Shown: positions 22,293-62,886 of the stretch, piece by piece
Position numbering within the stretch: the first letter of the stretch is position 1
Layout of the letters: every line of letters starts with the position of its first letter
The notes under the pieces: model-generated
Seen by the model: the letters and a program-made list of their open reading frames with translations, nothing else
The model's database searches: none
What the model was told of the DNA's origin: nothing
From: a virus
Reading direction: 5' to 3' (one strand)
IMG/VR virus record: IMGVR_UViG_3300009514_000435
Span: 2,497 to 66,496 of that record
DNA: 64,000 bases
Program-made: the position numbers and the translations under genes

Positions 22293-24902
22293 TTATGGGT
22301 CAATTGGGTAAGTCAATATCATAGGAAAACCTATTTCTTTATTACCAGACCAACCAGTTGGTACATAATCGGAACCATCCCATCTTTCAAATTTAATGAC
22401 ACCTTCATCTACTCTAAATACAGAAGATTCAATAGGACTGCCTGCATTATAAAGGCCTGCACATGGTATATACGCATTATCCATAATTGAAGTAGCAGAA
22501 AGTTCGGCAGGTAAGCCTGATATTCCATGTTGACTTGTTCCTGAATGTGTTACCGTACCTGTACTTGGTACTCTTATTGAAACAATATTTCCAATTCTAG
22601 TATAAGTACAATTAACACTTACAGGGCCAGACGAATACCTTATATATCCAGTAAAAGTACCAGATGTATAGGTATCGAGTATAGGTTCACTGGCTCCAAA
22701 TTTAAGACCATTAATAAATCTTACAGTAGAACCGCCTAAACTTATTAATGAGTTTGCAGAATTTAATCCAATATCAATACTTGTTGAAGAATCTAAAGTG
22801 ATTGAACCGTATGCAGAAAGTTCCAACGAACCTACACTCGCACCGTTTTTACTTATGTAAGCAGAATCGTTCCCACTAGTACCAAAATAGATATAATCAC
22901 CATTTGTAGTTGTCCACCCGTTACCAGGGAACGAAAGTTGACCACCGTTATTCAATTCAACATTATCATTAAAAACAGCAGAATTACTAAAAGTAACAGT
23001 ATCACTAAAAGTAACAGTATCAAGGAAAAAAGTATTTCCTTCAAATCTTAAAGTATCATCTGCCTTTATTCTTAAATTACCAACATTTCCTGTATCGTTC
23101 CCCGCACTAATTATCATTTCATTGTCATCAGAATTTGAACGAAAATCCATGTGCATTGTATTATTGAGATCATCTTTAGCATGGAACCTCCACCCTGCTC
23201 CAACACCACCGAAACCAGTGTAAACTCCACTATCATCACCTAAATATGATTGTACAGCACTTGTAGAATCTATATAAAGATTATCGGTTGCTGAAAGCAA
23301 TAAAGAATCCAAATCATCTGATTTTTGTTCCAATACACCCACACCTGAAGTTTCATCCCTGATAACAGTGCCACCACCATCCATGTATAATTTCTTAGCA
23401 ATATAAATATTACCTTGTGCGTTTAAGTATAACCCACCTTGATCTGCGGATAAAGATAAACCATTAGTATCCGAAACCCAATGGTTTTCAAGTACACCCA
23501 TATTGGATATAAAACTTCCATTATTTGGCCCGATCATCCTCAATTGAGGATATATTCTAACATATCCAGATGCACTGCCATGTAATCTCAAGTTTATAGT
23601 TGCGGATAATGTTAAATCCAAACTTGAACCTACTTCTTCTATATGTCCGTATCGTACACCATTTTCATTGTTAAAATAAACAAAATCATTCCAAAAATGA
23701 GTAGTAGCACTGACATGTACATCATCACCTTTAAAATTAACAGTGTTAATATCAACATCACCAACTGAAGCACTTAATGTTAAAGTCCCTGTACCTTCGT
23801 TCACATTAACATGTAACCCATCAGAAGAAGCTGATAAATCTGTTTGCCCATCTGTTCCGCTTGTTCCTTGTAATCTCAATTGAGCTTTAGAAGTATCACC
23901 AACAGTAAGTCTAGCTTCTATTGGTGTGGGTTCTCCCATATCGCTTTCAAATATGATAACATTATCAGACGTATTTAACCCAAAAGCAGATGTAGAATCT
24001 GACCAATTAGATATAACCAAATTAGTTAAATTGGTCACAGAAGAATCTCTCGCAAAAGCTAGTTGCATTACACCTTCCCAAATTAAACCCTGTCCGTTGT
24101 TTGAAGATATTTCTTTAGTCTGGGTTCCTTCAAAAGAACCCACACTGAAAGGAACAGGTGCAACAGATGTATTCTCTGTACCATTTGCATTCATAGCTTG
24201 AGCATATAAAACTATTTTATTAAATCTAAAATCGCCATGTACTGTTGTGAGTCTAGTTGTGTATCTACCGACATCTAAATTAGAACCTGCGGAAGTTACT
24301 TTTGAAAAACCATCCACTTTGTATAATAAATCTCTAGCATTACTATTGGTAAAAACAACAGGAGGCACTTCGGGAACTTGTGCAATATCTGTACCTGTAA
24401 AACCACCCACACCATCTGAAGTTATCGTTGAAGCTGAAAGAATAACCGAATCAATAGCAGATACACCATTTAATAGGGTAGCTCTGGAAGCCAGTGCTTG
24501 GGAAGAACCAGAAATAGAAAAAGAATCAAACCCAACAGAACTTGTATAACCATAACTATTATTTGCACCAAAAGCACTAGAATAAACAGAATTTTGACCC
24601 GTTAATTGCCATACATCGGCTGATGTTACACCATAAATAGTAGACATCCCTAAAGGGTTATAAAATTTCTGACCTTCTAATGTAGTATGAACAAAATCTG
24701 TAGCAGAAGTAGTGGCTGATAGTGGATATACGTTTGTTCCCAACCCATCTGTTGTTTCTTGTGTAAGGGTGTGATTTGCTTCATCTATTCTAGGATCATA
24801 GATAGGCAAGAAATATTTTAAAGCAAAATAAGAGCCGAAAGAAGCATTATGAATCGCATTTATACCTTCGTCTAATATTACGGATGTTTTTGCCAACGCC
24901 AT
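22293..24902 (-). CDS. Tail fibre / baseplate-attached spike protein
   Basis: 869 aa, G/S/T/N-rich beta repeats, C-terminal YTRIGNIV..ISGLP fibre-tip motif, late promoter. Confidence 0.7.
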   Translation of the reverse strand: MALAKTSVILDEGINAIHNASFGSYFALKYFLPIYDPRIDEANHTLTQETTDGLGTNVYPLSATTSATDFVHTTLEGQKFYNPLGMSTIYGVTSADVWQLTGQNSVYSSAFGANNSYGYTSSVGFDSFSISGSSQALASRATLLNGVSAIDSVILSASTITSDGVGGFTGTDIAQVPEVPPVVFTNSNARDLLYKVDGFSKVTSAGSNLDVGRYTTRLTTVHGDFRFNKIVLYAQAMNANGTENTSVAPVPFSVGSFEGTQTKEISSNNGQGLIWEGVMQLAFARDSSVTNLTNLVISNWSDSTSAFGLNTSDNVIIFESDMGEPTPIEARLTVGDTSKAQLRLQGTSGTDGQTDLSASSDGLHVNVNEGTGTLTLSASVGDVDINTVNFKGDDVHVSATTHFWNDFVYFNNENGVRYGHIEEVGSSLDLTLSATINLRLHGSASGYVRIYPQLRMIGPNNGSFISNMGVLENHWVSDTNGLSLSADQGGLYLNAQGNIYIAKKLYMDGGGTVIRDETSGVGVLEQKSDDLDSLLLSATDNLYIDSTSAVQSYLGDDSGVYTGFGGVGAGWRFHAKDDLNNTMHMDFRSNSDDNEMIISAGNDTGNVGNLRIKADDTLRFEGNTFFLDTVTFSDTVTFSNSAVFNDNVELNNGGQLSFPGNGWTTTNGDYIYFGTSGNDSAYISKNGASVGSLELSAYGSITLDSSTSIDIGLNSANSLISLGGSTVRFINGLKFGASEPILDTYTSGTFTGYIRYSSGPVSVNCTYTRIGNIVSIRVPSTGTVTHSGTSQHGISGLPAELSATSIMDNAYIPCAGLYNAGSPIESSVFRVDEGVIKFERWDGSDYVPTGWSGNKEIGFPMILTYPIDP

Positions 24903-24940
24903 TGATTTACCTCAATATTTTAAAATTTTCATATATTAAC

Positions 24941-24948
24941 TATTTATA
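24941..24948 (-). promoter_or_regulatory. T4-type late promoter TATAAATA
   Basis: Exact motif, intergenic. Confidence 0.75.
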
Positions 24949-25004
24949 ACACTAATGAGTCTCGAACATTTTAACTATTTCGTATGATTCTGGGCCTGAT
25001 TATC

Positions 25005-25445
25005 TCAATTCAGTTTAAAGTTAAGTCGTTTATCCGAAAACTCAAATGTAGTTATTTGGGGCAGTTTACTTTTCATTTTTTTTATAAAAAATGACTTATA
25101 ATTATAACCCAACCAACCTATAAAAACATCACTATTATTCATCGGCAAAACCTGAGCCACTGTTATGAAATTATTTCCTTTTTGATAATCAGCACCCACC
25201 GCAATATTATGTTCTTCCAAAAAAGAAAGAACAGTATAATGATAAACCTCTCCATCCCACACATATAGATCGGGTTCTTCGGAAGAAGTCAATCCAAACC
25301 TAATAGACTTTGTTGACGATTCTACTAATATTTTATTAATCATTCTAGTGGATGGATTTTTGAATATCATAATTTCTTTCCAACTTCTACCATCAAGAAA
25401 ATTTATCTTTGTTGAAAACGTTTGCATTATTTCAACCAATCCCAT
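25005..25445 (-). CDS. Hypothetical protein
   Basis: 146-aa ORF overlapping the upstream GT. Confidence 0.55.
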   Translation of the reverse strand: MGLVEIMQTFSTKINFLDGRSWKEIMIFKNPSTRMINKILVESSTKSIRFGLTSSEEPDLYVWDGEVYHYTVLSFLEEHNIAVGADYQKGNNFITVAQVLPMNNSDVFIGWLGYNYKSFFIKKMKSKLPQITTFEFSDKRLNFKLN

Positions 25446-26071
25446 TCAAATTCTTTTTTCATTCTATCATTATGTTCTAATTTAATATCAAAATCACACA
25501 CAACTCGAAAACCTTGTTTTCTGGCTTTAGTACAAAAGTAAATATCTTCCCCTAAAATATTCTTACTTTTATTTATAGGATTAAAAAAGAAAGGTTCATA
25601 TTTTAATTTTTCAAAAACCTTTCTTTTAATTAGCATAAAGCCTGTTCCTGAACTTCCAACTTCTCTTATCCCTGTAGCGGTTGATTTAAACTGCCCTATA
25701 AAGTTTCCATCTTCATCATTCATGTATGTTTGATACATATCAGAACCATGTTGTTTATAAGGAGCCACTGTAATATCGGAATTTATTTCTAATAACCTAA
25801 TGATATCATCTATATCACCAATTATATCTGAATCCAGAAAAAAGAAATAATTAAAAGGTAAAATTTCTCCCGTACCATCATCAATTAAATGATTCCTTCC
25901 TGAGAAAATTTGTGTTGCATGGCGAGGTTCTACATGAAATTCATAATCCTTATATTGATACACAAGAAGTTTTTTTATTTCTTTCCCTTTTCTTGCTAAT
26001 GTTCTTAAAAGTTGACCTGCATCTGTTACAAACTCATGGTAGAAAGGAATACATATCCTTACTGTTTTCAT
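25427..26071 (-). CDS. GT-A glycosyltransferase located between fibre genes
   Basis: RN, FFFLDSDI, GTGFMLIKRKVFEKL, GEDIYFC, D.DIKLEH. Confidence 0.8.
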   Translation of the reverse strand: MKTVRICIPFYHEFVTDAGQLLRTLARKGKEIKKLLVYQYKDYEFHVEPRHATQIFSGRNHLIDDGTGEILPFNYFFFLDSDIIGDIDDIIRLLEINSDITVAPYKQHGSDMYQTYMNDEDGNFIGQFKSTATGIREVGSSGTGFMLIKRKVFEKLKYEPFFFNPINKSKNILGEDIYFCTKARKQGFRVVCDFDIKLEHNDRMKKEFEWDWLK

Positions 26072-26098: not shown

Positions 26099-27553
26099 TT
26101 ATGTTGGTCTTTTCATAACTACACCATCGGGCAATGTAGCATGATTTTTGGTAACCCATAACCCATCACTGGAAGATATAACAGCAGAAGTGGCTCCTTC
26201 TGATAACCCAACTAACTGTATATTATCATTATCAGTCACCTCTAAAACAATTCCACCATCATCTCCATGTGCTTTTAACCTTATTGTTCCTGTGTTGCTT
26301 CCAGAAGTACCTGCACTTATTTGTACAAAAGAACCATCTAAAGGAACAGTTAAATATATACTACCTTCGGCTCTAGCAGACACATTAAAAGTAGAATTTA
26401 TTAATATATCGTTTTGAGAATCCATACTTATATCATTATTTGAATATAATAATATACCATATTCTGCACTTGTGCCTGTTGCTGATAAACCAATTGGGCC
26501 TATACCAGACACACTAAAAAAACCATTATTAGGTGTAACGGTATCTAAAGCACCGTATTGAAAAATAAAATCATTTAAATACGCTTCAAAAGAACTATTC
26601 GCATTTTTCTTTAAATGGTTAATTTTAAATGGGCCTTCGTTAAAATTATAGTATCCTGCTGAAACAGTTAAACCGCCCGTAACATCAGTAATTAATTCAC
26701 TACCATCAGTAAACATTCTCCCTAAAAAAGAACCCACTTGGTTTGATTTGAATATTAAACCATCATCATCATTACCTGTTCCATTAAACATAGTTAAAGA
26801 ATTACCACTAGTGATATGAGAACCACCAATTGTGACATTACCGCTAAAATAAGTTGTAGTTGCAGATAGTTGTATATTTGTTGAAGATGAAGTCTCCAAT
26901 TCGTTTGTGGTTCCATTCCACATAATGAAAGAATTTTGTTGATCACCAAAAGCAACTTTAGTGTCATCTCCCATACTTATTACACCAGCAGAAGTAACTT
27001 GAAATCTTTCTAAACCATCTGTTATAAATCTGATTCTACCTGTAGTTGTACTCCACGTTCCAAGTGTCATTTCTGATGAATCATGGTTCCAACTTAAAAT
27101 AGAAGCAAAATTTTCAGCAGATGAACCAAAAGCTATCCATTGATTATAATTTCTATGTCCTATAATAGAAATACCCTGATCCCATTCTTGTGTGCTTTCA
27201 AATACCGCTAAATTAACATCATTATCAGGATCAGTTATAACACTATTTGGCCCAGATAAAACATGTAATCTTGTGATTGGAGGTGGCCCCGAATCTCCAG
27301 AAATAATTAAAGTAGAATCTTTAACAATTACCCCATCGACAAATTCTTTCAATCCCGATGCAGATTGATCACCAGACAATAACATCTGATTAGTATCATC
27401 AGAATAAAGCAAATAACCGCCACCACTTAATAACCTGTGAACCTGTTTACCCGAATCTGTGGCTATGCCTTTTTGACCAAGACGAAGACCGCCTGCTAAT
27501 AATTGGGCTTCCGTCTTATGTACCCTTTGTACATCTGCACTAGTTATTGTCAT
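26099..27553 (-). CDS. Tail fibre-like virion protein
   Basis: G/S/T-rich; IRFITDGLERFQVTSAG fibre repeat; follows baseplate wedge genes. Confidence 0.65.
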   Translation of the reverse strand: MTITSADVQRVHKTEAQLLAGGLRLGQKGIATDSGKQVHRLLSGGGYLLYSDDTNQMLLSGDQSASGLKEFVDGVIVKDSTLIISGDSGPPPITRLHVLSGPNSVITDPDNDVNLAVFESTQEWDQGISIIGHRNYNQWIAFGSSAENFASILSWNHDSSEMTLGTWSTTTGRIRFITDGLERFQVTSAGVISMGDDTKVAFGDQQNSFIMWNGTTNELETSSSTNIQLSATTTYFSGNVTIGGSHITSGNSLTMFNGTGNDDDGLIFKSNQVGSFLGRMFTDGSELITDVTGGLTVSAGYYNFNEGPFKINHLKKNANSSFEAYLNDFIFQYGALDTVTPNNGFFSVSGIGPIGLSATGTSAEYGILLYSNNDISMDSQNDILINSTFNVSARAEGSIYLTVPLDGSFVQISAGTSGSNTGTIRLKAHGDDGGIVLEVTDNDNIQLVGLSEGATSAVISSSDGLWVTKNHATLPDGVVMKRPT

Positions 27554-27582: not shown

Positions 27583-28656
27583 TTAAGGCCCATCTTCGAT
27601 ATACAAGTCACTAGCACTACCCGTTTCTTCAATAATATCAGGCATGGAACCACTTTCTTCTATTAAATCAAGAATTTCAGGAACTTCAGGATAAGAACCA
27701 TTAAACGGCCATATCGCCTTTGTGGTGTGATAAGAATCCATTCTCACATAAACCGTTTCTAGTTCAAGATTAAAAATTATCTGTAACGTATCGAAAACAT
27801 CATTAATCGGTCTAATAACTTCTACGGCTCTAAGAATATTGTCAAGATCGTTCAACCAAGAAGCAGGTGTTCTGTTTGCATCGATCCTGATAACAAAATG
27901 AGGGGTTGGAAAATAATTATCAGGAAAATCAGATACCCCAGAAGTTAATCCATTTGGATCTTCTTCCAACCAAAAGGTAGGATCGTTTCCGTATCCTCCG
28001 CTTGTAGGGTGATTAGCGTTTGATGACAATTCATCAGAAGTCCATCTATAAACCAAGTCGCCCACTAAACCAAAAGAGTAAAACAACACTTTTACTGCAT
28101 TTCTAGTTGATTTGATTTGATACCAGTTGGGGAGATTTGACACTACAAATCGAAGATATTGATTGGTGTATTCATCGTTTACTGTCGCACTAGTCAAATC
28201 GTTAATATTATTTCTATGGACATCAATATTATATCCCATAAAGTTAGCAATTCTCTGAATAAACTCTATATCCACCAAATTCGGATCTTTTAATTCTGCA
28301 ATTCGTCTTGCTTTTTCTAAAATCGAAATAGTATGAGCAGGATCAGTTATTTCTTCAGTAGCCGAAACAGTACCATAACCGTTTGGATTAGCCGAAGTTA
28401 CGATATTCCCTGCGGAAGTCGTTTGATATTTGAAATAAGTCTTTTCACCATCAGCATCCGTAGTCCAGTTATCTAAAGTTCCAGTAGCCGATATTTCGTT
28501 ATAATAAAGCTCATTTAAAAAATCTTCAAACAAGCCTACAAAATCACCAACTTCTGATTGTTCCAGATGGTCTGGAAGAAATTGTTTTAAATTGATCTCC
28601 TTCCCTTCTGGTTGTCGTAAAGATGAATTTGTGTTTAAATCTGGATCATGTGGCAT
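27583..28656 (-). CDS. Baseplate wedge protein (gp7 / P2 gpI-like)
   Basis: LKDPNLVDIEFIQRIANFMGY, LPNWYQIKST..AVK, IRPIN; directly after gp6. Confidence 0.65.
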   Translation of the reverse strand: MPHDPDLNTNSSLRQPEGKEINLKQFLPDHLEQSEVGDFVGLFEDFLNELYYNEISATGTLDNWTTDADGEKTYFKYQTTSAGNIVTSANPNGYGTVSATEEITDPAHTISILEKARRIAELKDPNLVDIEFIQRIANFMGYNIDVHRNNINDLTSATVNDEYTNQYLRFVVSNLPNWYQIKSTRNAVKVLFYSFGLVGDLVYRWTSDELSSNANHPTSGGYGNDPTFWLEEDPNGLTSGVSDFPDNYFPTPHFVIRIDANRTPASWLNDLDNILRAVEVIRPINDVFDTLQIIFNLELETVYVRMDSYHTTKAIWPFNGSYPEVPEILDLIEESGSMPDIIEETGSASDLYIEDGP

Positions 28657-33111: not shown

Positions 33112-33539
33112 CCACTTTCTTTTTTAACAACGTCAATCGGTTTCACCTTCTCTAAAGGAGCATAAACCGTTTTAATAATCGGACTCAGTATTTCTATTTC
33201 TAATTCTAGTTTCATATCTAATTCTCCCCCAAAGCCTACTGTGGTTGATATAACAGGTATCCCTGATGTTTGAGACTCACCATCCACTAGTGCGGTAGCC
33301 AAGTCTGTATTAGCTGATGTGACTCCCATAGGCCCATCTGCCGAAAGATTAAAAATGGTATTAGGTGAAGCCGAAACATCAACCGCACTGGTTGTGTCAA
33401 CATAAAATCCGCAATCATGTAATACCGCATTTCCAGAGTTGGCCGTTAATTGTGTTGCCCCACTTGTGATATTTGCGTGTTTTACAAACGCACTAGTGCT
33501 TGAATCATAAACAATATAATAACAGTCAACAAGTGCCAT
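33108..33539 (-). CDS. Hypothetical virion protein (S/T/A-rich)
   Basis: Coupled to the upstream gene; five xSA motifs. Confidence 0.55.
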   Translation of the reverse strand: MALVDCYYIVYDSSTSAFVKHANITSGATQLTANSGNAVLHDCGFYVDTTSAVDVSASPNTIFNLSADGPMGVTSANTDLATALVDGESQTSGIPVISTTVGFGGELDMKLELEIEILSPIIKTVYAPLEKVKPIDVVKKESG

Positions 33540-36723: not shown

Positions 36724-36724
36724 G

Positions 36725-37051: not shown

Positions 37052-37058
37052 AATAATC

Positions 37059-37880: not shown

Positions 37881-37890
37881 ATCTTACCCC

Positions 37891-40845: not shown

Positions 40846-40879
40846 TGATTATACTCCTTTTCAATTTCAATATTTTAAT

Positions 40880-40887
40880 TATTTATA
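40880..40887 (-). promoter_or_regulatory. T4-type late promoter TATAAATA
   Basis: Exact motif, intergenic. Confidence 0.75.
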
Positions 40888-40893
40888 TTCCTG

Positions 40894-41517: not shown

Positions 41518-41525
41518 TTCAAAAG

Positions 41526-41533
41526 TATTTATA
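41526..41533 (-). promoter_or_regulatory. T4-type late promoter TATAAATA
   Basis: Exact motif directly after the terminator. Confidence 0.7.
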
Positions 41534-41566: not shown

Positions 41567-41588
41567 CCTTAACTATTGTTTAGTTTTA

Positions 41589-50475: not shown

Positions 50476-50485
50476 TTTCTATCTC

Positions 50486-51317: not shown

Positions 51318-51325
51318 TATTTATA
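51318..51325 (-). promoter_or_regulatory. T4-type late promoter TATAAATA
   Basis: Exact motif upstream of gp14. Confidence 0.75.
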
Positions 51326-54305: not shown

Positions 54306-54314
54306 CCTTTACCC

Positions 54315-57300
54315 CTATAAAATTATTACTCTGCTAAATGTTACTACTAATCCGCTTCTATTAATTACATACGGCAACACTAAGGTCAAAGAATTATCAT
54401 CCGTTCTGATGTCTAATTTTATTTGACTTGTAATTACCGAAATTCTATCTTCCCATAATTCTATCGCTCTTAATAACTGATCCAACAATCTATTAGCTGA
54501 TTCTATATCTAAAGTATCAAAAACAACCAACGGCAAATCTGAACCAAAGAAAGGTGAAAATAATCTTTCCCCTCTTATTGTTGATAAAATATTCTCTATA
54601 CTTATATTTATGGCTTTATCATCAAATATTTCCCCTACAGATAAGGTATTTTTATCAAGATCATAAGCATATGAATCTATTCTCTCTGTTTTCCTTTTAG
54701 CATTAATTAACGCTTGAGTGGTGTCGATGAAATTTTCATTATCTGCAATTCCATTCACTGTAAAAATAGGAAGAACTAATGTTCCTGTACCTGAAATGCT
54801 TTGTATTACTGTTCCTACACCAAAAAGAGTTGGAACGGGAATCACCAAACCCCCTACACCTGTTCTACCAACCAGACCATCACCAGAAAGAATTGGAATA
54901 GGCACTGTTAAAGAACCCGTACCATCACTCCCGACAGTTCCTACACCAGAAAGGGTTGGAATAGGTATTACCAGATCACCCGTACCAGTATGTCCAAGTT
55001 GACCTATACCAGAAAGAATTGGAATAGGCACTGTTAAAGAACCCGTACCAGTATGTCCAAGTTGACCTATACCAGAAAGAGTTGGAATAGGCAATGTTAA
55101 AGAACCTGTACCATCACTCCCGACAGTTCCTACACCAGAAAGAATTGGAACAGGTATTACCAGATCACCTGTACCAGTATGTCCAAGTTGACCTACACCA
55201 GAAAGAATTGGAATAGGTATTACCAAATCACCCGTACCATCACTCCCGACAGTTCCTACACCAGAAAGGGTTGGAATAGGTATTACCAAATCACCCGTAC
55301 CATCACTCCCGACAGTTCCTACACCAGAAAGAGTTGGAATAGGCAATGTTAAAGAACCTGTACCATCACTCCCGACAGTTCCTACACCAGAAAGAATTGG
55401 AATAGGTATTACCAAACCACCTGTACCAGTATGTCCAAGTTGACCTATACCAGAAAGAATTGGAATAGGCACTGTTAAAGAACCCGTACCAGTATGTCCA
55501 AGTTGACCTACACCAGAAAGAGTTGGAACAGGAATCACCAAATCCCCTACACCTGTTCTACCAACCAAACCATCACCAGATAATGTTGGTACTGGAATTG
55601 TTAAAGAACCTGTTCCTGTAGAACCTTCGGACACAGGTTCCCATATGTTTGAACTAGCTAGTCCGTTGTAATAAGTTGCTTTTAACCATTCTAAAGATCT
55701 TCCAGTATTTGAAATCCTAACTTCATCTATTCTACCGTCAAAATTTTCTTCATCAGATGTACTAACACCTATTCTAAACTGATTTCCTGTAGTATCATCG
55801 ATAGTAGAACCACTAGAAGCCGTACCGTTTTGTGTACCATTGATATAAGTTGTTATAGTTCCACTTACGAAAGTAAAAGCAACATGATACCAATTACCAA
55901 CAGACATTGAAGCAGATGTATTTGGACAATCATCATAAACACCAGAATCAGTATCCAAATATACACCCAAACAACCATCATCTACATATAACCAATAATT
56001 ACCTTTTTCTGCAATATCATTCCAATTTGTAGAATCATAAGATTCAGCATTTATCCACGCTTCTAAAGTTAAATTATTGGTAATATTTAAACTATCGTGA
56101 TCATCAACTTCTATATAAGTGTTTGTAGCACTAATAATTCTACCATCACCAATTTGACTTGCAGATAAATCGGAACTGAAGTTTTCTCCATCATTATTTG
56201 CACTAGTTGAATCTAATAAAGAAGATCCTAAATGTTGTACTAGTTTAAAATTGTCATCCCAAACAGCATCACTACCAGATGTTGCTGTAACATCAGGTTG
56301 ACTTATTGTTGCAGATGTATCGTACCAGATATATAAGTTATTACCACCAGAAGCACTTAAATCAGTCTTAACCCAAAGTTCTAAAGCAGAAGTTGAAGTA
56401 TCACAAGTAACCACTTCAATGGGTACAGGATTGGAACCAGAAGAATCAGTAGTTACCCGTATATCCCCACCGCCATCTTGAACATATTCCCAAAAATCAG
56501 AAGCAGATACTTCACTGTTTGTAATTAGAGAAGGAAAATCTGATAAATTACTATCAACATAAGTTCCAACTGATTCTATATTTACTTTCTTATTCCAATC
56601 ATCAGGAAAAACAGAGGTAAACGGTTCAACATTAACAGTTATTTGTAATAATCTATTTAAAGAAGATCCATCAGAATCATATCTATCGTTTAAGGTAGAT
56701 TCATCATCAACCTGTCTTGTAAAACCTTGAATGTTTGACGATCTAGAACCAGAAGTAACTCCGTTAAATCTCATTCTTTGAAAAACGCTGTTTGCAGAAT
56801 AAACTTCAGCATCTGTGTCACCATTAGCGACTGTTGTATATAACCAAGAATCATCTGCCGATGTTGTATTATCTATTGTTTGTATGAAATCAGAAGTAAT
56901 CTTTGTATTTGTAGTTGGATCATAAGGTTTAACTTGTTTTACATTATAAATAGAAGTTGCACCTAACCAAAAATCAGCTAAAGAGGCAGTGCAGGTTGCA
57001 GATACTTCATAAGTTCCACTACTTGAAGGTAATTCAGAATCCAATAAATAATATAAACCTAAATCGTTTGCTCCTTCATCGGCAAACTCAATTAAGTGCA
57101 TTTCCACACCATCAAAATAAACATTATAATCAGCAGATGTTGTTGATGTAGCATCTTCTTTTAATATAGAAGCAAATAAAACTCTATTTGGTTGTTCTCC
57201 TAATTCAAAATCAAAAGATACAGATGTAACGCTACCATCACCAATTAAACCCGAATAATCATGTCTGATTTTAGATATTCTATTAAATTCTATTATAGAA

Positions 57301-58310
57301 AAACTACCATCAGAATCTGTTCCACCTTCATCCCTTTCCAATGTAACACTAGATGTGCTTAATGAAGAATGGTTAATAGTAACCGCCATTTCTCCAAAAT
57401 CATCATCCGCTTGATTAGCTCCCCAAAAAAACCTTGTCATTGAATGAGAAACACCAACAGTGTAATCTATATTTACATTAGGATCTAATGTATAATCATC
57501 AGAAGTAGAACCACCCGTAAAACTTTGGGCATCAAAATGTTGAACTAAAATATCATCACTTCTAAATTCTATGATTTGAAATGTAGCCGTTAAAGAAACA
57601 CCAGTTGCACTTCTCCTTTCCATTGTAAAGGTTTCATTATCAAGAAAATAAGCAGTATATATATCATCACCGTTTACATTGTTTGAGGTTTCGCAACTAC
57701 CAACAATGACAGCTTGAGTATAATCCTTCAAAGGGGTAGCTAGAGTTCTATTTAAATCCCCATCATTGGTAGCAACAATAACATCGTGTTGCTGAACAAA
57801 AGCATGTTCATTCCAATCTATAACTTGATAGTTTCTTGTTCCAGACCACCCACTACCTGTACTAACTTCTAGTGAAGTTGAAGAATCTAATTTGATTCTA
57901 GTCATGTCATCTGAACCAAAAGCTCCACCATTATTGTAATAATTAGTTTCAACATGTGTTGCTGAAGTATTAACAGTAGAAATAGTTATAGACGAATCTG
58001 TAGATTCAAAAGTCCCATGTTGAACTTCAATACCCGATTCGACAGAAAATTCCACAACAGCCCATTCAACTTCTGCCGTTGAATCACTATCATAATTACT
58101 AATTTGAAGATTTGTAGATGAGGTTAAAGTATATTTTATTAAACCAACACCAGGGGCACCAGAACCTGTTTTAACTGTACAAATCAACCAAGCTCTTGAA
58201 GAATTAACAGGATTAATAGTAACATTAGTGGGATCGGGAGAACCACCACCGCCTGTACTTAATGATACTGTACCGCTTTGTATATTTTTAACTATTGGTA
58301 TTAATGCCAT
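54315..58310 (-). CDS. Virion protein: beta-rich N-terminal domains, DUF2341 + LamG, 21-aa repeats, C-terminal gp25-like domain
   Basis: DGGGDIRVT, LWVK, TLEAWI, WYHVAFT, FDGRIDEVRISN; C-terminus SIENILSTIRGERLFSPFFGS..WEDRI. Confidence 0.8.
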   Translation of the reverse strand: MALIPIVKNIQSGTVSLSTGGGGSPDPTNVTINPVNSSRAWLICTVKTGSGAPGVGLIKYTLTSSTNLQISNYDSDSTAEVEWAVVEFSVESGIEVQHGTFESTDSSITISTVNTSATHVETNYYNNGGAFGSDDMTRIKLDSSTSLEVSTGSGWSGTRNYQVIDWNEHAFVQQHDVIVATNDGDLNRTLATPLKDYTQAVIVGSCETSNNVNGDDIYTAYFLDNETFTMERRSATGVSLTATFQIIEFRSDDILVQHFDAQSFTGGSTSDDYTLDPNVNIDYTVGVSHSMTRFFWGANQADDDFGEMAVTINHSSLSTSSVTLERDEGGTDSDGSFSIIEFNRISKIRHDYSGLIGDGSVTSVSFDFELGEQPNRVLFASILKEDATSTTSADYNVYFDGVEMHLIEFADEGANDLGLYYLLDSELPSSSGTYEVSATCTASLADFWLGATSIYNVKQVKPYDPTTNTKITSDFIQTIDNTTSADDSWLYTTVANGDTDAEVYSANSVFQRMRFNGVTSGSRSSNIQGFTRQVDDESTLNDRYDSDGSSLNRLLQITVNVEPFTSVFPDDWNKKVNIESVGTYVDSNLSDFPSLITNSEVSASDFWEYVQDGGGDIRVTTDSSGSNPVPIEVVTCDTSTSALELWVKTDLSASGGNNLYIWYDTSATISQPDVTATSGSDAVWDDNFKLVQHLGSSLLDSTSANNDGENFSSDLSASQIGDGRIISATNTYIEVDDHDSLNITNNLTLEAWINAESYDSTNWNDIAEKGNYWLYVDDGCLGVYLDTDSGVYDDCPNTSASMSVGNWYHVAFTFVSGTITTYINGTQNGTASSGSTIDDTTGNQFRIGVSTSDEENFDGRIDEVRISNTGRSLEWLKATYYNGLASSNIWEPVSEGSTGTGSLTIPVPTLSGDGLVGRTGVGDLVIPVPTLSGVGQLGHTGTGSLTVPIPILSGIGQLGHTGTGGLVIPIPILSGVGTVGSDGTGSLTLPIPTLSGVGTVGSDGTGDLVIPIPTLSGVGTVGSDGTGDLVIPIPILSGVGQLGHTGTGDLVIPVPILSGVGTVGSDGTGSLTLPIPTLSGIGQLGHTGTGSLTVPIPILSGIGQLGHTGTGDLVIPIPTLSGVGTVGSDGTGSLTVPIPILSGDGLVGRTGVGGLVIPVPTLFGVGTVIQSISGTGTLVLPIFTVNGIADNENFIDTTQALINAKRKTERIDSYAYDLDKNTLSVGEIFDDKAINISIENILSTIRGERLFSPFFGSDLPLVVFDTLDIESANRLLDQLLRAIELWEDRISVITSQIKLDIRTDDNSLTLVLPYVINRSGLVVTFSRVIIL
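54745..55616. repeat. 63-bp (21-aa) coding tandem repeat, 13 full copies plus 1 degenerate
   Basis: GTG[S/D]L[T/V][I/L/V]P[I/V]P[T/I]LSG[V/I]G[TVGSD/QLGHT/LVGRT]. Confidence 0.92.
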
Positions 58311-58314: not shown

Positions 58315-58911
58315 TTATTCTATTAAAATTTGTACCCTATTTTTAATTTTTAATCTATTGATTCTATCCGTAAAACGATATGATGGTAAAAACCACTCAC
58401 TTACATAATTCCTGTTTACATTTGTTGTAGCTACCCCGTTTGTAAAAGATAAATTTAATAGAAAATGTTGTTTATCATCCGCAGATGTTCCTATAATATC
58501 AACATCAAAAACACTTGTAAAATCAGAATCTAAAGTAATACCATCACTATCATATATAGTCCATGTCAACACCGCAGTGTCCTCACCATCGGCAGAAACG
58601 GAACTAGTATCGGCAGAAACATCTAATTGCTTCCATGTATCATAATCTGAAAAATCCACACCAGATATACCGCTAGTTGGAGTCCACTTTAAAGAAAAAA
58701 TAGCATCTTCTTTAAATATTCTGTTAGTAGCAGAAGTAACTTCATTTCCAAAATTAAGAATAGCATAATCTTCATTTACACCACCATATATTGAAACCAT
58801 ATTCTTAATAATAGCTTCCGATGTTGGTTGGTTTTTTGTATATATAGTAGAACCTTTTTCAACAATTTCTGCTGATGTCCCTATATTATTTACTGAACCT
58901 ATTATATACAT
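58315..58911 (-). CDS. Hypothetical virion protein, paralogue of the upstream ORF
   Basis: Start reassigned to MYIIG (58911) by analogy with the paralogue start MYIVG; shared LKWTP...SG.DF..Y..W...VSAD. Confidence 0.6.
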   Translation of the reverse strand: MYIIGSVNNIGTSAEIVEKGSTIYTKNQPTSEAIIKNMVSIYGGVNEDYAILNFGNEVTSATNRIFKEDAIFSLKWTPTSGISGVDFSDYDTWKQLDVSADTSSVSADGEDTAVLTWTIYDSDGITLDSDFTSVFDVDIIGTSADDKQHFLLNLSFTNGVATTNVNRNYVSEWFLPSYRFTDRINRLKIKNRVQILIE

Positions 58912-58912
58912 C

Positions 58913-59536
58913 TCATCTACCCCCACCTTGACTTTTTTGTTTTGGTGGATCTGAAAAAACAATCCTAACTTTTAATTTTATTTGTGTATCTACTCTTAAC
59001 ATATTTTTTCTATCTGTCCACATTTTATATGGAAATAAGTAAGTACCAGATTCTACTGGTGTGAATGATAATGAACCCACACCAGATGTAAACATTACAC
59101 TTTCAGATATTATTTTATTTCTACCTTTTAAATACTCGAAATTAATAGTTGAATTAAAATTAGTATCCACTGCTTGTTTGTTTTTAATTAAAACTTGTAA
59201 AGTAATATTTGCAGTTTCATTAGGATCTAAAACATATTTATCAGCACTCACACCTATAAAACCCCAATTTTCATATTCAGTAAAATCAATGCCCGAAACA
59301 TTGTTTTCAGGTGTCCATTTTAATTTATAAAAAGCATCCCGTTCTATTATCTTTTCATATGTTTCTGATTTTTCATTAATAAAAAAAACAGCATAATCGG
59401 TAACATTTCCACCAAATTTTAAAACTGTATTTTTTAAAATAATATCTTCAGACGGATCACCTGTTAAATAATATCCAGATTGATATAAAACTTCATCTTC
59501 TTGGCCTTGTTTATTTTTAACACCAACTATATACAT
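58913..59536 (-). CDS. Hypothetical virion protein with Ig-like C-terminus, paralogue of the downstream ORF
   Basis: MYIVG...GG...DYA...LKWTPENNVSGIDF..Y..W...VSAD. Confidence 0.6.
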   Translation of the reverse strand: MYIVGVKNKQGQEDEVLYQSGYYLTGDPSEDIILKNTVLKFGGNVTDYAVFFINEKSETYEKIIERDAFYKLKWTPENNVSGIDFTEYENWGFIGVSADKYVLDPNETANITLQVLIKNKQAVDTNFNSTINFEYLKGRNKIISESVMFTSGVGSLSFTPVESGTYLFPYKMWTDRKNMLRVDTQIKLKVRIVFSDPPKQKSQGGGR

Positions 59537-59870: not shown

Positions 59871-60248
59871 TTAAGATGCTGGTACTGTTACAGTAAGAGA
59901 AGTCACAGCAACACTATCACCCGTATTGATTGATGTAGTATTGAAATTAATATCTCCACCAGAAGCACTTACTGTTCCTGATAGTACAACTTCATCGTTC
60001 CCTGCTTTGATTCTAAAGGCTCCTGCGGTTCCAGTAGCATTCGCACTAGTATCCGAAGTGATTGAGTTTGCAGTAGATACACCTGTAGAAGAAGAACCAA
60101 AAGCAGTTGCACTAAAAGTCAATTCTGCTAATAATGTTCCGAATCCATCTGTGTAAAAATCCAATTTACCTGTACCCGCAGTGTCGATCATATCAACCAA
60201 AGCATTGTTTATTGTATCTCTTGCAGATGTTGCTAAAATTAATCCCAT
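59871..60248 (-). CDS. Small beta-sandwich virion fibre/decoration subunit
   Basis: G.L.FYT...TLLAELTFS..AFG, ANATGTAGAFRI, GTV..SGGDINF.TTSI.TGD.V.VTSLT.T.P; own late promoter. Confidence 0.65.
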   Translation of the reverse strand: MGLILATSARDTINNALVDMIDTAGTGKLDFYTDGFGTLLAELTFSATAFGSSSTGVSTANSITSDTSANATGTAGAFRIKAGNDEVVLSGTVSASGGDINFNTTSINTGDSVAVTSLTVTVPAS

Positions 60249-61615: not shown

Positions 61616-61623
61616 TATTTATA
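61616..61623 (-). promoter_or_regulatory. T4-type late promoter TATAAATA
   Basis: Exact motif just past the capsid terminator. Confidence 0.7.
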
Positions 61624-61631
61624 AAACCAAC

Positions 61632-61665
61632 AAAAAAAGGAGAGGTATTTCTACCTCTCCCCTTT
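61632..61665 (-). terminator. Rho-independent terminator after the major capsid gene
   Basis: GGAGAGGTA-GAAA-TACCTCTCC followed by TTTTTTT. Confidence 0.85.
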
Positions 61666-61686
61666 ATTTTTTGGCTCAATTATTGA

Positions 61687-62886
61687 TTAGAATAATTGTG
61701 ATACATTATCATTGCTCCATTTTGTGTAGTACCTTGAAGCACCAAGCAAAGATGAAGTAATAGCGTACCTGGACATAACCCCTATTCTTGGAGTAAAATC
61801 CTCTTGTGCCATTGCTCTGTTAAACAGACCAGTAATATATGGTGAATAAATGATACCTGCATCACCAACACCTGCTCCTTTAAAACCTGCAAGGATTTGG
61901 TCGTTTGTGTTATAAGTATCTCTAAACACTTTGATACTACCGTTAAGAGAACCAATTTCTGCATAAGTGTTTGAAGGATTGACTGCTTGTTTGTTGGCAG
62001 TGAATCTTCCACCTTCAAGAGATTGTAATGCTGTAGCAACTGATGTAGAAACAACTACGAAGTTACCTGCACCTCTTCTTGTTCTGGAAGCGATATCGTT
62101 ACATTCTTTAACGATTCTGTTTGCCATCTGAGCGATTCTTTCTTGAGTCCATCTACCATCAGTAGCAGACACATCAAAAGTGGTAGTAGAAGTAGCAACT
62201 GATTTACAGTTAGCTAAAAGTTCTCTATCCATTTCCGCTTGGATTTCATACTGAAGAACATTTACCATTTCTCTTTCAATATCAACACCATGCATCGCTT
62301 TGATATCTTGTGCTGATTCTAGAGAGAAAGAAGCTCCCAGTTTTCTTGTCTTAGCTTCAATCGCAACTTTGTCAATCTTCATTTGCAATTCAGGGTAATT
62401 TGTACCCAATAAGAAGGCTTCACCTGCTGAAGTGTCTACACCTGTTCCTGCATCTGCTGTACCAGAAGTACCAGAAGTTGAACCTGTGAATCCTGAGTAT
62501 TCAGGAACTACATCAAATGATGCTTCATTGCTATCTGCACTATCTTTGTATACAAATCTCAAGGCATATGCGAGTCCAACGGGGCCAGACATTGCCTGTA
62601 CGCCAACAATTTTGTTTGCGAACAGATCAGGGAAAGTTCTTCTTACCAATGCTAAAGAGATCGGTGAAAAAGCCCCATCCAAACCTGCATGAGTTTGAGA
62701 AGTAGTAGTTGTAACTGAACCTTGACTTGCTTCAAAAAGTTTTTCTTTTTTGATTTCATACTCTTGGTTTTCCAAAAGTACAGCAAGGTTTTCTTTAACG
62801 AATTGATCTTTTTCTTCAGAGATATTAAGTTTACCCTTAACATTACTCCACTTTTCGACCAACTGTTCTACTCTATTTTTTTCCAT
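61687..62886 (-). CDS. Major capsid protein gp23-like (compact, 399 aa)
   Basis: LVEKW, LLENQ, LVRR.FP.L.A..IVGVQAMSGPVGL, AKTRKL, QDIKAMHG.D.E, EI.AE.DRE, TRRGAGN, YSPY, F.PRIG.MSRY. Confidence 0.96.
   Translation of the reverse strand: MEKNRVEQLVEKWSNVKGKLNISEEKDQFVKENLAVLLENQEYEIKKEKLFEASQGSVTTTTSQTHAGLDGAFSPISLALVRRTFPDLFANKIVGVQAMSGPVGLAYALRFVYKDSADSNEASFDVVPEYSGFTGSTSGTSGTADAGTGVDTSAGEAFLLGTNYPELQMKIDKVAIEAKTRKLGASFSLESAQDIKAMHGVDIEREMVNVLQYEIQAEMDRELLANCKSVATSTTTFDVSATDGRWTQERIAQMANRIVKECNDIASRTRRGAGNFVVVSTSVATALQSLEGGRFTANKQAVNPSNTYAEIGSLNGSIKVFRDTYNTNDQILAGFKGAGVGDAGIIYSPYITGLFNRAMAQEDFTPRIGVMSRYAITSSLLGASRYYTKWSNDNVSQLF

What the first reader, a model, noticed from the sequence alone, without database searches (positions are those of the whole stretch)
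22293..62886. [T/L/V/I]-S-A motif enriched in exposed virion proteins but not buried ones: putative glycosylation sequon
Seen (hand counts of the dipeptide SA): about 22 in the 869-aa fibre (versus about 8 AS, half of them inside SAS), 11 in the 484-aa fibre, 11 in gp6, 6 in gp7-like (4 within one insertion of about 45 aa), 5 in the 143-aa ORF at 33108, 5 at 58315, 4 in the 125-aa subunit, and many in both gp25 fusions. In the sheath, 7 of 9 fall in the N-terminal variable region (e.g. GTSATSAVG, STSAY, GTSAD) and almost none in the conserved core. Buried or non-virion proteins are nearly free of it: tube 0, scaffold 0, tape measure 1 in 638 aa, terminase 1. TSG behaves similarly. Inference: non-homologous proteins converged on an acceptor motif read by the phage's own transferases, giving a glycan coat over fibres, baseplate, sheath and neck.
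Basis: partly seen in the sequence, partly recalled or inferred. Interest (0 to 1): 0.85.

Follow-up and report, generated by a model that had tools for sequence, protein, structure and literature searches.

The report
Serine-alanine tag on phage tail proteins
The outer tail, baseplate and neck proteins of this uncultured T4-like phage carry the short motif Thr/Leu/Val/Ile-Ser-Ala about five times more often than chance allows; it is probably a tag where the phage attaches sugars to its own tail, but no chemistry shows this and no single enzyme tracks it.

Summary
All hand counts are exact. Within-protein shuffles give [TLVI]-S-A 92 against 18.1±4.2, with none of 1000 shuffles reaching it. SA is the top outlier of 400 dipeptides in the structural module. 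The motif is Ser-specific, directional and coded by both serine codon families.

It is not a by-product of this phage's total lack of Ala-Ala. A complete relative with normal Ala-Ala shows the same excess.

The trait is lineage-variable. 33 of 80 related loci have it. Orthologous folds in relatives without it lack the motif. Sites turn over and sit in variable, low-confidence loops. That argues against a fold requirement and for a density-selected modification site.

Next to the fibre genes lies a nonulosonic-acid pathway with Maf-like, GT2, GT10-like and compact GT4-like transferases. No transferase tracks the motif cleanly. The GT4-like family occurs in 0 of 7 informative motif-free relatives. 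It is missing from 6 motif-rich records and present in 2 distant motif-free phages.

Best reading: a glycosylation sequon, about 50%. The scan has noted similar serine motifs on other aquatic phages.

The parts
22293..24902 (-). 869-aa fibre-like ORF, the most motif-rich protein
   Evidence: SA 22 vs 6.4 expected, AS 8. 17 of the 22 are [TLVI]SA. No Pfam or PHROG family. The N-terminal 359 aa are 46% identical to the 917-aa fibre-like ORF of G002.
26099..27553 (-). 484-aa fibre-like ORF
   Evidence: SA 11 vs 3.0, AS 2, p<0.0005. No family.
27583..28656 (-).
   Evidence: SA 6 vs 1.2. The orthologues in motif-rich genomes are also enriched. No family.
28674..31106 (-). gp6-like baseplate wedge protein, 810 aa
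   Evidence: phrog_219, E 8e-31. SA 11 vs 4.3. 5 of its 8 motif sites lie in the two internal segments with pLDDT<50 of the AF2 model.
33108..33539 (-). 143-aa ORF of unknown role
   Evidence: SA 5 vs 1.35, all five [TLVI]SA. The G002 counterpart of 172 aa has SA 5 vs 1.4.
43232..45022 (-). tail sheath, weakly enriched
   Evidence: phrog_23, E 7e-61. SA 9 vs 5.0, p 0.054. 7 of the 9 fall in residues 1-210.
49669..51292 (-). gp15-like sheath stabiliser and head-closure (neck) proteins
   Evidence: phrog_227 and phrog_679. SA 4 vs 1.2 and 3 vs 1.1. Orthologues in motif-rich genomes are strongly enriched, e.g. 10 vs 1.1 in G017.
51321..58310 (-). two large proteins (994 and 1331 aa) with gp25-like C-termini
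   Evidence: phrog_261 and phrog_43 match the C-termini. SA 14 vs 4.8 and 15 vs 6.5.
58315..58962 (-). 215-aa ORF of unknown role
   Evidence: SA 5 vs 1.0, AS 0, p 0.0025. No PHROG family.
59871..60248 (-). 125-aa virion structural protein
   Evidence: phrog_3758. SA 4 vs 2.05, not significant alone.
61687..62886 (-). major capsid protein: exposed but NOT enriched (counter-example)
   Evidence: phrog_138, E 1e-82. SA 4 vs 3.6, AS 5.
20863..21651 (-). compact GT-B/GT4-like glycosyltransferase ('famA'), candidate priming enzyme
   Evidence: No Pfam hit. AF2 model pLDDT 96.8. All listed top Foldseek PDB hits are GT-B transferases, E about 1e-8. E217 is nearly invariant and E225 invariant. 8 of 10 fused relatives carry GT2-like or RgpF domains.
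20135..20887 (-). GT2 glycosyltransferase, conserved neighbour of famA
   Evidence: PF00535, E 2.7e-16. A GT2 gene abuts famA in the window and in 8 of the 11 other famA-bearing records of the gp6 family.
19320..20135 (-). GT10-like (fucosyltransferase C-terminal domain) protein
   Evidence: PF00852, E 1.3e-15.
17796..18524 (-). Maf-like (MptE-like/Maf_flag10, PF01973) domain protein, 242 aa
   Evidence: 57.8 bits against a cut-off of 34.6. 62% identical copy in relative G001.
4147..17799 (-). sugar-nucleotide pathway
   Evidence: Contents: two epimerase/dehydratases, a Glyco_transf_7C-like protein, a DegT aminotransferase, an FkbM methyltransferase, NeuB (8816-9655), two sulfotransferases, a cupin, a B12-radical SAM enzyme, an SDR, a TIM-barrel isomerase, a methyltransferase, a class-III aminotransferase and a CMP-type cytidylyltransferase (17092-17799). 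Source: Pfam hits.
25427..26071 (-). 214-aa ORF between the two fibre-like genes, weak GT-A-like signal
   Evidence: phrog_12406 'glycosyltransferase', E 9e-7. Sub-threshold GT2 Pfam hits, E 0.03-0.04.

Best explanation
[T>L,V,I(,F)]-Ser-[Ala>Gly] is a short linear motif kept at high density, by selection on the proteins, in the flexible and variable surface parts of the distal tail: fibre-like proteins, baseplate periphery, neck and outer sheath. It occurs in this phage and in many, but not all, of its T4-like aquatic relatives.

The most likely function is an acceptor site for a serine-directed modification made in the host cytoplasm during assembly. The most likely modification is O-glycosylation by soluble glycosyltransferases that the phage encodes beside its fibre genes.

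Inferred steps for this phage: a compact GT4-like enzyme (20863-21651) and its GT2 neighbour start the glycan. The GT10-like and Maf-like transferases extend it with a modified nonulosonic acid made by the NeuB/cytidylyltransferase pathway at 4147-17799.

Shown: the motif and its statistics, its lineage variability, its loop location in the gp6-like protein, and the identity of the enzymes. Inferred: that the serine is modified, by what, and by which enzyme.
For: (1) Size and specificity.
- [TLVI]SA 92 vs 18.1±4.2, reached by 0 of 1000 shuffles. The reverse AS[TLVI] is 14 vs 18.2, and Thr in place of Ser gives 10 vs 16.1.
- TSA 42 vs 4.4. In pooled motif-rich loci of relatives TSA is 377 vs 56.9, and LSA, VSA, ISA, FSA, TSG and LSG are all enriched.

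(2) The signal is at protein level.
- 16 different codon pairs are used. Ser is coded TCN 75 times and AGT 34 times.
- The complete relative G002 has no restriction-site avoidance and normal Ala-Ala. Its structural module still shows SA 110 / AS 59 / expected 63.9, while the rest of its genome shows 115/107/109.

(3) The motif is not needed for the folds.
- In orthologues of six outer proteins the motif is 168 vs 48.8 in five motif-rich genomes and 39 vs 23.1 in the motif-poor ones. G036 has 8 vs 11.7.
- Inner proteins show 32 vs 35.7 and 32 vs 27.7.

(4) Density is kept while sites turn over.
- Motif Ser is kept in 14 of 14 sites against the 83%-identical relative (other Ser 65%), but in only 11 of 32 against G002 (other Ser 39%).
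- Each of the 8 gp6 sites is shared by 1-4 of 22 motif-rich homologues.

(5) Location. 5 of the 8 gp6 motif sites lie in the two internal pLDDT<50 segments, 69 of 810 residues, p 2e-4. The four non-motif SA sit in helices or strands.

(6) Enzymes beside the fibres.
- Searches identify the cluster.
- The GT4-like fold matches include the protein Ser O-transferases SdgB and GtfA.

(7) Distribution among informative relatives.
- All 16 motif-rich records have GT1/GT2 hits, against 2 of 7 motif-free ones (uncorrected Fisher p 6e-4).
- The GT4-like family is in 0 of 7 motif-free and 11 of 17 motif-rich or intermediate records.
Against: - No chemical evidence exists for any modification.
- No enzyme tracks the motif. 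The GT4-like family is absent from 6 motif-rich records that hold at least 28 kb downstream of gp6 (confirmed by hmmsearch for the five of the six that one search covered, G006, G012, G013, G014 and G021).
- The same family is present in two distant T4-like records, G054 (complete) and G055, which show no SA excess: 229/200/215 and 165/151/148.
- Phylogenetically independent pairs number only 4. The trait goes the same way in about 1 of them, p about 1.
- PF01973 and NeuB are missing from motif-rich complete relatives.
- G036 and G010 carry GT2/GT1 genes with little or no motif.
- The major capsid protein, which is exposed, is not enriched.
- In the 869-aa ORF several sites share a wider L-x-L-S-A context. 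This could be a structural rung repeat.
- G-S-[TLVI] is also mildly enriched, 47 vs 28.9.
- gp6 SA excess correlates only weakly with the rest of its locus: rho 0.26, p 0.11; Mann-Whitney p 0.023.
- The published reading of such transferase clusters is modification of the host's O-chain (PMC7029224, passages read).
Confidence: 0.5

Rival explanations
1. A structural or folding motif. Hydrophobic-Ser-small would be a favoured local structure, such as a loop start, a turn or a rung of a fibre repeat, in domain types that some lineages use heavily. No modification would be involved.
For: - A wider L-x-L-S-A context recurs in the 869-aa ORF.
- G-S-[TLVI] is mildly enriched too, 47 vs 28.9.
- No transferase tracks the trait.
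- The paralogous gp25-like fusions share some sites by descent.
Against: - The same folds in relatives do without the motif: G036 has gp6 1 vs 3.2, gp15-like 0 vs 0.5, gp14-like 0 vs 0.5.
- Sites are not conserved in position and turn over.
- 5 of 8 gp6 sites are in low-confidence loops rather than regular structure.
- There is strict Ser specificity and direction: AS[TLVI] 14 vs 18.2, [TLVI]TA 10 vs 16.1.
Confidence: 0.2
2. A recognition site for something other than a phage glycosyltransferase. Candidates are another serine modification (phospho-, acyl- or phosphoglycosyl-), an enzyme of the host, or a chaperone or protease that handles tail proteins. Lineage differences would then reflect host or accessory-gene differences.
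For: - The trait changes state at least 9 times on the gp6 tree, and no GT family explains it.
- Two non-GT families are in all five near-complete motif-rich genomes and in none of four motif-free ones. They are a calcineurin-like metallophosphoesterase (PF00149, 34 bits) and a 200-aa protein with no family.
- Neither family is in any motif-free record of the 50 searched.
Against: - These two families may be plain lineage markers. They are missing from motif-rich G022 and G029, and each from G015 or G019, all about half complete.
- No kinase or acyltransferase candidate was seen in the window.
- The sugar cluster sits next to the fibre genes.
Confidence: 0.2
3. A by-product of nucleotide-level pressure. 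This phage avoids GCNGC so completely that Ala-Ala never occurs, and Ser-Ala would merely replace it, or SA would reflect a DNA word.
For: Ala-Ala occurs 0 times against 51.7 expected. GCNGC occurs once in 66.5 kb.
Against: - The left module has the same Ala-Ala ban but SA 18 vs 15.1.
- G002 has Ala-Ala 158 vs 150.5 and GCNGC 266, yet shows the same SA excess in the same proteins.
- 16 codon pairs are used.
- AS would break the site equally well but is not enriched.
Confidence: 0.03

Closest known systems
Virion glycosylation of mycobacteriophages by phage-encoded glycosyltransferases (Freeman et al. 2023, Cell Host Microbe). The paper is not held here; it is known only through its citation in PMC12619734 (passage read).
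   Same: Transferases are encoded by the phage next to structural genes. The modification would be made in the cytoplasm on virion proteins. A shielding role is proposed.
   Different: There the glycans were seen chemically, at the C-termini of the capsid and tail-tube subunits. Here nothing has been seen chemically. Capsid and tube are exactly the proteins without the motif. The candidate sites are internal h-S-[A/G] motifs scattered over fibres, baseplate and neck of a T4-like myophage.
Maf-type O-glycosylation of flagellins with nonulosonic acids (PMC11339370, passages read)
   Same: A PF01973 domain protein stands next to a NeuB/cytidylyltransferase pathway. The reaction is cytoplasmic, on Ser/Thr of surface-exposed parts of a protein that later polymerises. 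Modified residues lie near hydrophobic residues.
   Different: No conserved sequon is known for Maf. Here Thr is not accepted and the +1 residue is Ala or Gly. The window's protein has 242 aa, against the three-domain Maf described in that paper. Motif-rich relatives G002, G018 and G023 have no PF01973 hit, so Maf cannot be the general reader of the motif.
GT4/GT-B protein serine O-transferases SdgB (Ser-Asp repeats) and GtfA (serine-rich repeat adhesins); PDB 7vfm and 4pqg among the fold hits
   Same: GT-B fold. A soluble enzyme that glycosylates Ser within a very short repeated context.
   Different: The match is at fold level only: 10-15% identity, and many non-protein GT4 enzymes score equally well. 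The window's enzyme is much smaller, 262 aa against about 500. Its acceptor is unknown.
Glycosyltransferase-rich 'host recognition clusters' of pelagimyophages and cyanomyophages (PMC7029224, passages read)
   Same: Same genome architecture: tail-fibre genes interleaved with many sugar genes in aquatic T4-like phages.
   Different: That paper reads the transferases as modifiers of the host's O-chain. It reports no motif on the fibres.
Ser-Gly / Ser-Ala attachment sites of eukaryotic glycosaminoglycans, and the Bacteroidetes D-(S/T)-(A/I/L/V/M/T) O-glycosylation motif (both recalled, from no call)
   Same: A serine followed by a small residue serves as the acceptor.
   Different: These are different enzymes, compartments and flanks. 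Asp stands at -1 in only 4 of 109 SA sites here, and Thr is not used.

Membership tests
Phage virion glycosylation of the mycobacteriophage type | Phage-encoded glycosyltransferases adjacent to structural genes | tested here: met
   GT2, GT10-like, Maf-like and GT4-like genes at 17796-21651 directly follow the fibre-like gene.
Phage virion glycosylation of the mycobacteriophage type | Glycan chemically detected on virion proteins | not testable with these tools
   The contig is metagenomic; no virions or spectra are available.
Phage virion glycosylation of the mycobacteriophage type | Acceptors at the C-termini of capsid and tail-tube subunits (as cited in PMC12619734) | tested here: not met
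   The capsid protein has SA 4 vs 3.6 and the tube-like proteins 0. The motif lies in fibres, baseplate and neck.
Maf flagellin-type nonulosonic acid glycosylation | PF01973 (Maf_flag10/MptE-like) transferase domain | tested here: met
   17796-18524 scores 57.8 bits against a cut-off of 34.6. The protein has only 242 aa and is not a three-domain Maf.
Maf flagellin-type nonulosonic acid glycosylation | CMP-nonulosonic acid pathway (NeuB-type synthase, cytidylyltransferase, aminotransferase, dehydratase) | tested here: met
   PF03102, PF02348, PF01041 and PF01370 hits.
Maf flagellin-type nonulosonic acid glycosylation | The enzyme accompanies its acceptor sites across relatives | tested here: not met
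   PF01973 hits occur in 4 of 50 related records. Motif-rich G002, G018 and G023 have none. NeuB is in 3 of 50.
GT4 (GT-B) glycosyltransferases | GT-B two-Rossmann fold | tested here: met
   AF2 pLDDT 96.8. All listed top PDB matches are GT-B enzymes: probability 1.00, query TM-score (TMq) 0.5-0.72.
GT4 (GT-B) glycosyltransferases | E-x7-E motif in the C-terminal domain (hallmark recalled, from no call) | tested here: met
   E217 is nearly invariant and E225 invariant in 86 family members, seven residues between them.
GT4 (GT-B) glycosyltransferases | Match to a curated sequence model (Pfam Glycos_transf_1) | tested here: inconclusive
   No Pfam hit at E 0.01 for the window's protein. Relatives in G023, G004 and G032 give sub-threshold PF00534 hits of 15-17 bits.
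Protein serine O-transferase reading h-S-[A/G] (the claim itself) | Presence of the enzyme co-varies with motif density independently of phylogeny | tested here: inconclusive
   Within the gp6 family: 0 of 7 motif-free, 11 of 17 motif-rich or intermediate (uncorrected Fisher p 0.003). Only 4 independent pairs, p about 1. Two distant famA-bearing genomes are motif-free.
Bacteroidetes general O-glycosylation motif D-(S/T)-(A/I/L/V/M/T) (recalled) | Asp at -1, with Ser or Thr as acceptor | tested here: not met
   At -1 the residues are T 45, L 17, V 16, I 6 and D 4 of 109. xTA is not enriched.

The most novel reading that the evidence does not exclude
A large group of aquatic T4-like phages coats the outside of its tail (fibres, baseplate rim, neck) with O-glycans attached in the cytoplasm at a defined serine sequon, h-S-[A/G]. 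In this phage the glycans would end in modified, possibly methylated or sulfated, nonulosonic acids. This would be the first defined sequon for protein glycosylation in a bacterial virus. It would also reinterpret the transferase-rich 'host recognition clusters' of marine and freshwater myophages as machinery for decorating the phage itself rather than the host.
Probability: 0.3. Interest if true: 0.85.

Novelty: new variant of a known kind. Interest (0 to 1): 0.68.

Why it matters
Glycan-coated tail fibres would change how host recognition, adsorption, grazing resistance and stability are understood for some of the most abundant phages in water. They would give a function to the large sugar-gene islands next to their fibre genes, which are currently read as host-surface modifiers. 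A short, transferable serine sequon read by small soluble transferases would also be a useful glyco-engineering tool. Even if the motif is not glycosylated, it remains an unexplained rule of tail-protein sequence. It is Ser-specific, directional, five to ten times over-represented, and gained and lost repeatedly among relatives.

Tried and rejected
- DNA-level or Ala-Ala-replacement origin: rejected.
- Maf-like/NeuB as the general reader of the motif: rejected, because both are absent from motif-rich complete relatives.
- Search for one gene present in all motif-rich and no motif-free genomes. Only the GT4-like famA, a metallophosphoesterase (famB) and an unknown 200-aa protein (famC) survived the first screen. 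famA then failed on G006, G012, G013, G014, G020 and G021 (absent) and on G054 and G055 (present but motif-free). A 317-aa candidate proved to be a structural protein that also occurs, just under the threshold, in motif-free genomes.
- famA-anchored loci from IMG/VR (80 of 204 contigs). The 10-kb flanks mostly hold sugar genes, not fibres, so only 5 of 31 loci with enough upstream protein showed z>=3. The test was uninformative.
- The weak 'famA-like' hit in G006 is a different protein.
- Solvent exposure could not be computed, because model coordinates are not placed in the script box. Only DSSP and pLDDT strings were used.
- No close relative exists in the annotated phage collection.
- The first tree run timed out and was finished.
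- Literature searches found no paper describing glycosylated T4-like tail fibres or a Ser-Ala sequon. Supplementary files were not consulted.

Full report
**What the window is.** The window is 64 kb of a 66.5-kb metagenomic phage contig. It has 33% G+C and nearly all genes are on the minus strand. PHROG and Pfam matches identify these proteins:
- a T4-like set: gp6-like wedge protein, two proteins with gp25-like C-termini, sheath, gp15-like stabiliser, head-closure and adaptor proteins, major capsid protein, scaffold, and both terminase subunits;
- a tape measure, an OB-fold spike and a gp48/54-like baseplate protein.

RegA lies at 2828-3223. No annotated phage is close: the best sheath matches are 23-31% identical. 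Those names rest on position alone.

- All hand counts are exact, except the terminase, which has 2 rather than 1.
- With 2000 within-protein shuffles per ORF, 8 of 71 ORFs show SA at p<0.01. All 8 lie in the structural module, and none of them has AS enriched.
- Pooled over the 40 structural-module ORFs (13,189 aa), SA is the strongest of all 400 dipeptides: 129 vs 60.3. AS is 66 vs 60.3. The 31 ORFs to the left show SA 18 vs 15.1.
- The whole excess sits in one tripeptide class. [TLVI]SA is 92 vs 18.1±4.2, with a maximum of 34 in 1000 shuffles. [TLVI]SG is 69 vs 28.8.
- The reverse AS[TLVI] is 14 vs 18.2. Thr in the centre gives 10 vs 16.1. The left module has 2 vs 4.2.
- TSA alone is 42 vs 4.4.
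- Of 109 SA sites in 12 proteins, the residue before is T 45, L 17, V 16, I 6. The residue after is mostly T, D, S, G or N.
- Sixteen codon pairs are used, with Ser as TCN 75 times and AGT 34 times. The signal is therefore in the protein, not in a DNA word.

**Which proteins carry it.**

| Group | SA observed | SA expected | AS |
|---|---|---|---|
| Fibre-like and baseplate-periphery proteins | 89 | 28.4 | 26 |
| Sheath and neck | 21 | 10.2 | 9 |
| Major capsid protein | 4 | 3.6 | 5 |
| Inner or transient proteins (tube-like, tape measure, scaffold, spike, gp48/54-like, terminases) | 4 | 8.1 | 10 |

'Outer tail against inner parts' therefore holds. 'Exposed against buried' does not hold for the capsid. 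The sheath alone is marginal (p 0.054). Its first 210 residues hold 7 SA (3.2 expected) but also 6 AS.

**A trap that was checked.** The dipeptide Ala-Ala occurs 0 times in all 71 products, against 51.7 expected. Ala-Ala always contains GCNGC, and that word occurs once in 66.5 kb. CCGG, GCGC and CGCG occur 0 times. One could suppose that Ser-Ala merely replaces Ala-Ala. It does not:
- The left module has the same ban and no SA excess.
- The closest complete relative, G002 (202.5 kb, terminal repeats, gp6 54% identical, syntenic), has 266 GCNGC and Ala-Ala 158 vs 150.5.
- G002 nevertheless shows the same pattern in the same proteins. Its structural module has SA 110 / AS 59 / expected 63.9. The rest of its genome has 115/107/109.

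**Relatives.**
- A search with the gp6-like protein gave 139 homologues, of which the best 120 were listed. It also gave 80 loci from viral contigs, out of 205 that matched.
- Per-locus SA z-scores range from -2.0 to 10.2. 33 of 80 exceed 3, and AS is never enriched. The sums are SA 2834, AS 1760, expected 1837.
- In pooled motif-rich loci (192 proteins) TSA is 377 vs 56.9, LSA 214 vs 49.8, VSA 173 vs 46.3, ISA 164 vs 55.9, FSA 83 vs 32.1 and TSG 189 vs 67.3. xTA is flat.
- In motif-free loci (163 proteins) [TLVI]SA is 95 vs 107.8.
- On a gp6 tree of 79 rows the rich/flat state changes at least 9 times.
- One 1870-aa protein of relative G018 carries 62 SA, 55 of them [TLVI]SA, against 19.2 expected.

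**Fold requirement or overlay?** Four tests favour an overlay.
1. In orthologues of six outer proteins, the motif [TLVIF]S[AG] is 168 vs 48.8 in five motif-rich genomes and 39 vs 23.1 in motif-poor ones. G036 has 8 vs 11.7. G010 keeps it only in neck and sheath. Ten inner or non-tail proteins show 32 vs 35.7 and 32 vs 27.7.
2. Sites turn over. Against the 83%-identical relative, motif Ser is kept in 14 of 14 sites (other Ser 65%). Against G002 it is kept in 11 of 32 (other Ser 39%).
3. Each of the 8 motif sites of the window's gp6 is shared by only 1-4 of 22 motif-rich homologues, and many fall in lineage-specific insertions. The mean count per gp6 is 6.4 in rich and 3.3 in flat loci.
4. In an AF2 model of gp6 (mean pLDDT 77), 5 of the 8 sites fall in the two internal segments with pLDDT below 50 (residues 482-493 and 663-719, 69 of 810 residues; p 2e-4). 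The four SA outside the motif class sit in helices or strands.

Against an overlay: several sites of the 869-aa ORF share a wider L-x-L-S-A context that could be a rung repeat. G-S-[TLVI] is mildly enriched. gp6 excess follows the rest of its locus only weakly: rho 0.26, p 0.11; Mann-Whitney p 0.023.

**The enzymes.** Directly downstream of the fibre-like gene lies a block of about 17 kb, 4147-21651. It holds:
- two epimerase/dehydratases, a DegT aminotransferase, NeuB and a CMP-type cytidylyltransferase, together a nonulosonic-acid pathway;
- an FkbM and a second methyltransferase, two sulfotransferases, a B12-radical SAM enzyme, an SDR and a class-III aminotransferase;
- the transferases: Glyco_transf_7C-like, a 242-aa PF01973 (Maf_flag10/MptE-like) protein, a GT10-like protein and a GT2.

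PF01973 is the central domain of Maf flagellin glycosyltransferases. These have no known sequon but act near hydrophobic residues (PMC11339370, passages read).

The 262-aa ORF at 20863-21651 had no Pfam hit. With an 86-sequence alignment it folds at pLDDT 96.8. It matches only GT-B/GT4 enzymes in the PDB, E about 1e-8 and query TM-score (TMq) 0.5-0.72. Among them are the protein serine O-transferases SdgB and GtfA. E217 and E225 form an E-x7-E pair; that this pair is a hallmark is recalled, not from a call. The family has 291 representatives among 1.84 billion proteins. 8 of 10 fused forms carry GT2-like or RgpF domains. A GT2 gene abuts it in the window and in 8 of the 11 other famA-bearing records of the gp6 family.

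**Does any enzyme track the motif?** Only loosely.
- PF01973 is in 4 of 50 related records and NeuB in 3 of 50. All of these are motif-rich. But the motif-rich complete genome G018 and the 74%-complete G023 have neither, and the complete G002 has NeuB but no PF01973 hit.
- A presence/absence screen asked for families present in G002, G017, G018 and G023 and absent from G010 and G036. It left three: the GT4-like 'famA', a metallophosphoesterase 'famB' and an unknown 'famC'.
- famA always lies 5-28 kb downstream of gp6 on the same strand.
- Records counted as informative are complete, carry famA, or hold at least 28 kb downstream of gp6. Among these, famA is in 10 motif-rich and 1 intermediate record and in 0 of 7 motif-free ones. 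It is missing from 6 motif-rich and 1 intermediate record (uncorrected Fisher p 0.003).
- After phylogenetic correction only 4 independent pairs remain, and the test has no power.
- famA also occurs in distant T4-like lineages (204 viral contigs; their gp6 barely matches). Two of them, G054 (complete) and G055, have no SA excess.
- famA is therefore neither necessary nor sufficient.
- More generally, all 16 informative motif-rich records have GT1/GT2 hits against 2 of 7 motif-free ones. Five of the transferase-free records belong to one clade. G036 and G010 have transferases without, or almost without, the motif.
- famB and famC are in all five near-complete motif-rich genomes and in no motif-free record. 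They may be lineage markers.

**Reading.** The best-supported explanation (about 0.5) is a density-selected acceptor motif for a serine modification on the outer tail, most probably O-glycosylation by the phage's own soluble transferases. A purely structural motif (0.2) and another modification or host factor (0.2) remain open. A nucleotide-level artefact is excluded.

The closest known case is mycobacteriophage virion glycosylation (Freeman et al. 2023). I could see it only through a citing passage in PMC12619734. There the glycans sit at the C-termini of capsid and tube subunits, which are the very proteins that lack the motif here.

The literature on pelagimyophages notes transferases among the fibre genes but reads them as host O-chain modifiers (PMC7029224, passages). 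My searches found no report of glycosylated T4-like fibres or of a Ser-Ala sequon.

Earlier notes of this scan describe related serine motifs ([ST]-[GAS]-S, Ser-Gly) on other aquatic T4-type phages. No note concerns this genome or close look-alikes.

**Limits.**
- ORFs were called mechanically (longest ORF, overlaps removed).
- Most related records are fragments.
- The z-scores of short loci have little power.
- The host is unknown.
- No experiment bears on the claim.

Noticed in passing
whole window (all 71 ORFs); also G001 and G036: The dipeptide Ala-Ala never occurs: 0 vs 51.7 expected. GCNGC occurs once in 66.5 kb. CCGG, GCGC and CGCG occur 0 times. CCNGG and GGNCC are depleted, and with them Pro-Gly and Gly-Pro. 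Restriction-site avoidance is visibly shaping the proteome. The close relative G001 shows the same (AA 0 vs 21.5). An unrelated lineage, G036, does so independently: AA 23 vs 176, GCNGC 29 vs 256, CCGG 42 vs 469. G002 and the other relatives examined do not.
   Followed up: partly
window 45138-45848 (-): A homing endonuclease gene (phrog_655, E 3e-35) sits between the sheath and large terminase genes.
   Followed up: no
window 32113-33111 (+): The only plus-strand gene of the structural module encodes a 332-aa protein with a Fibrobacter succinogenes major domain (PF09603, E 2e-27). It has SA 0.
   Followed up: no
window 9652-13303 (-): Two sulfotransferase-domain proteins, a cupin, a HAD-like fragment and a B12-binding radical SAM enzyme lie inside the nonulosonic-acid cluster. 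This suggests an unusually decorated, possibly sulfated and C-methylated, sugar.
   Followed up: no
G002 167491-168006 and 74482-75093; homologues in G006, G015, G017, G018, G019, G023: A calcineurin-like metallophosphoesterase and a 200-aa protein with no family are found only in motif-rich genomes among the 50 records searched. The phosphoesterase abuts the GT4-like gene in G017 and lies 1.1-1.2 kb from it in G018 and G023. Neither is on the window's contig.
   Followed up: partly
window 20135-21651 and relatives: The GT4-like gene and a GT2 gene form a conserved adjacent pair, seen in the window and in 8 of the 11 other famA-bearing records of the gp6 family. They occur fused in other metagenomic proteins (8 of 10 fused forms examined carry GT2-like or RgpF domains).
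   Followed up: yes
window 22293-24902 (-), residues about 350-540 and 690-805 of the product: Several motif sites of the 869-aa fibre-like protein share a wider L-x-L-S-A-[S/T/D] context at irregular spacing of 10-52 residues. This may be a rung of a repetitive fibre fold.
   Followed up: no
G018 36564-42176 (-): A 1870-aa protein of a complete 254-kb relative carries 62 SA, 55 of them [TLVI]SA, against 19.2 expected and 22 AS. It is the densest carrier seen.
   Followed up: no
G019 98683-99180 (-): The metallophosphoesterase homologue of this relative is interrupted by one in-frame TAG.
   Followed up: no
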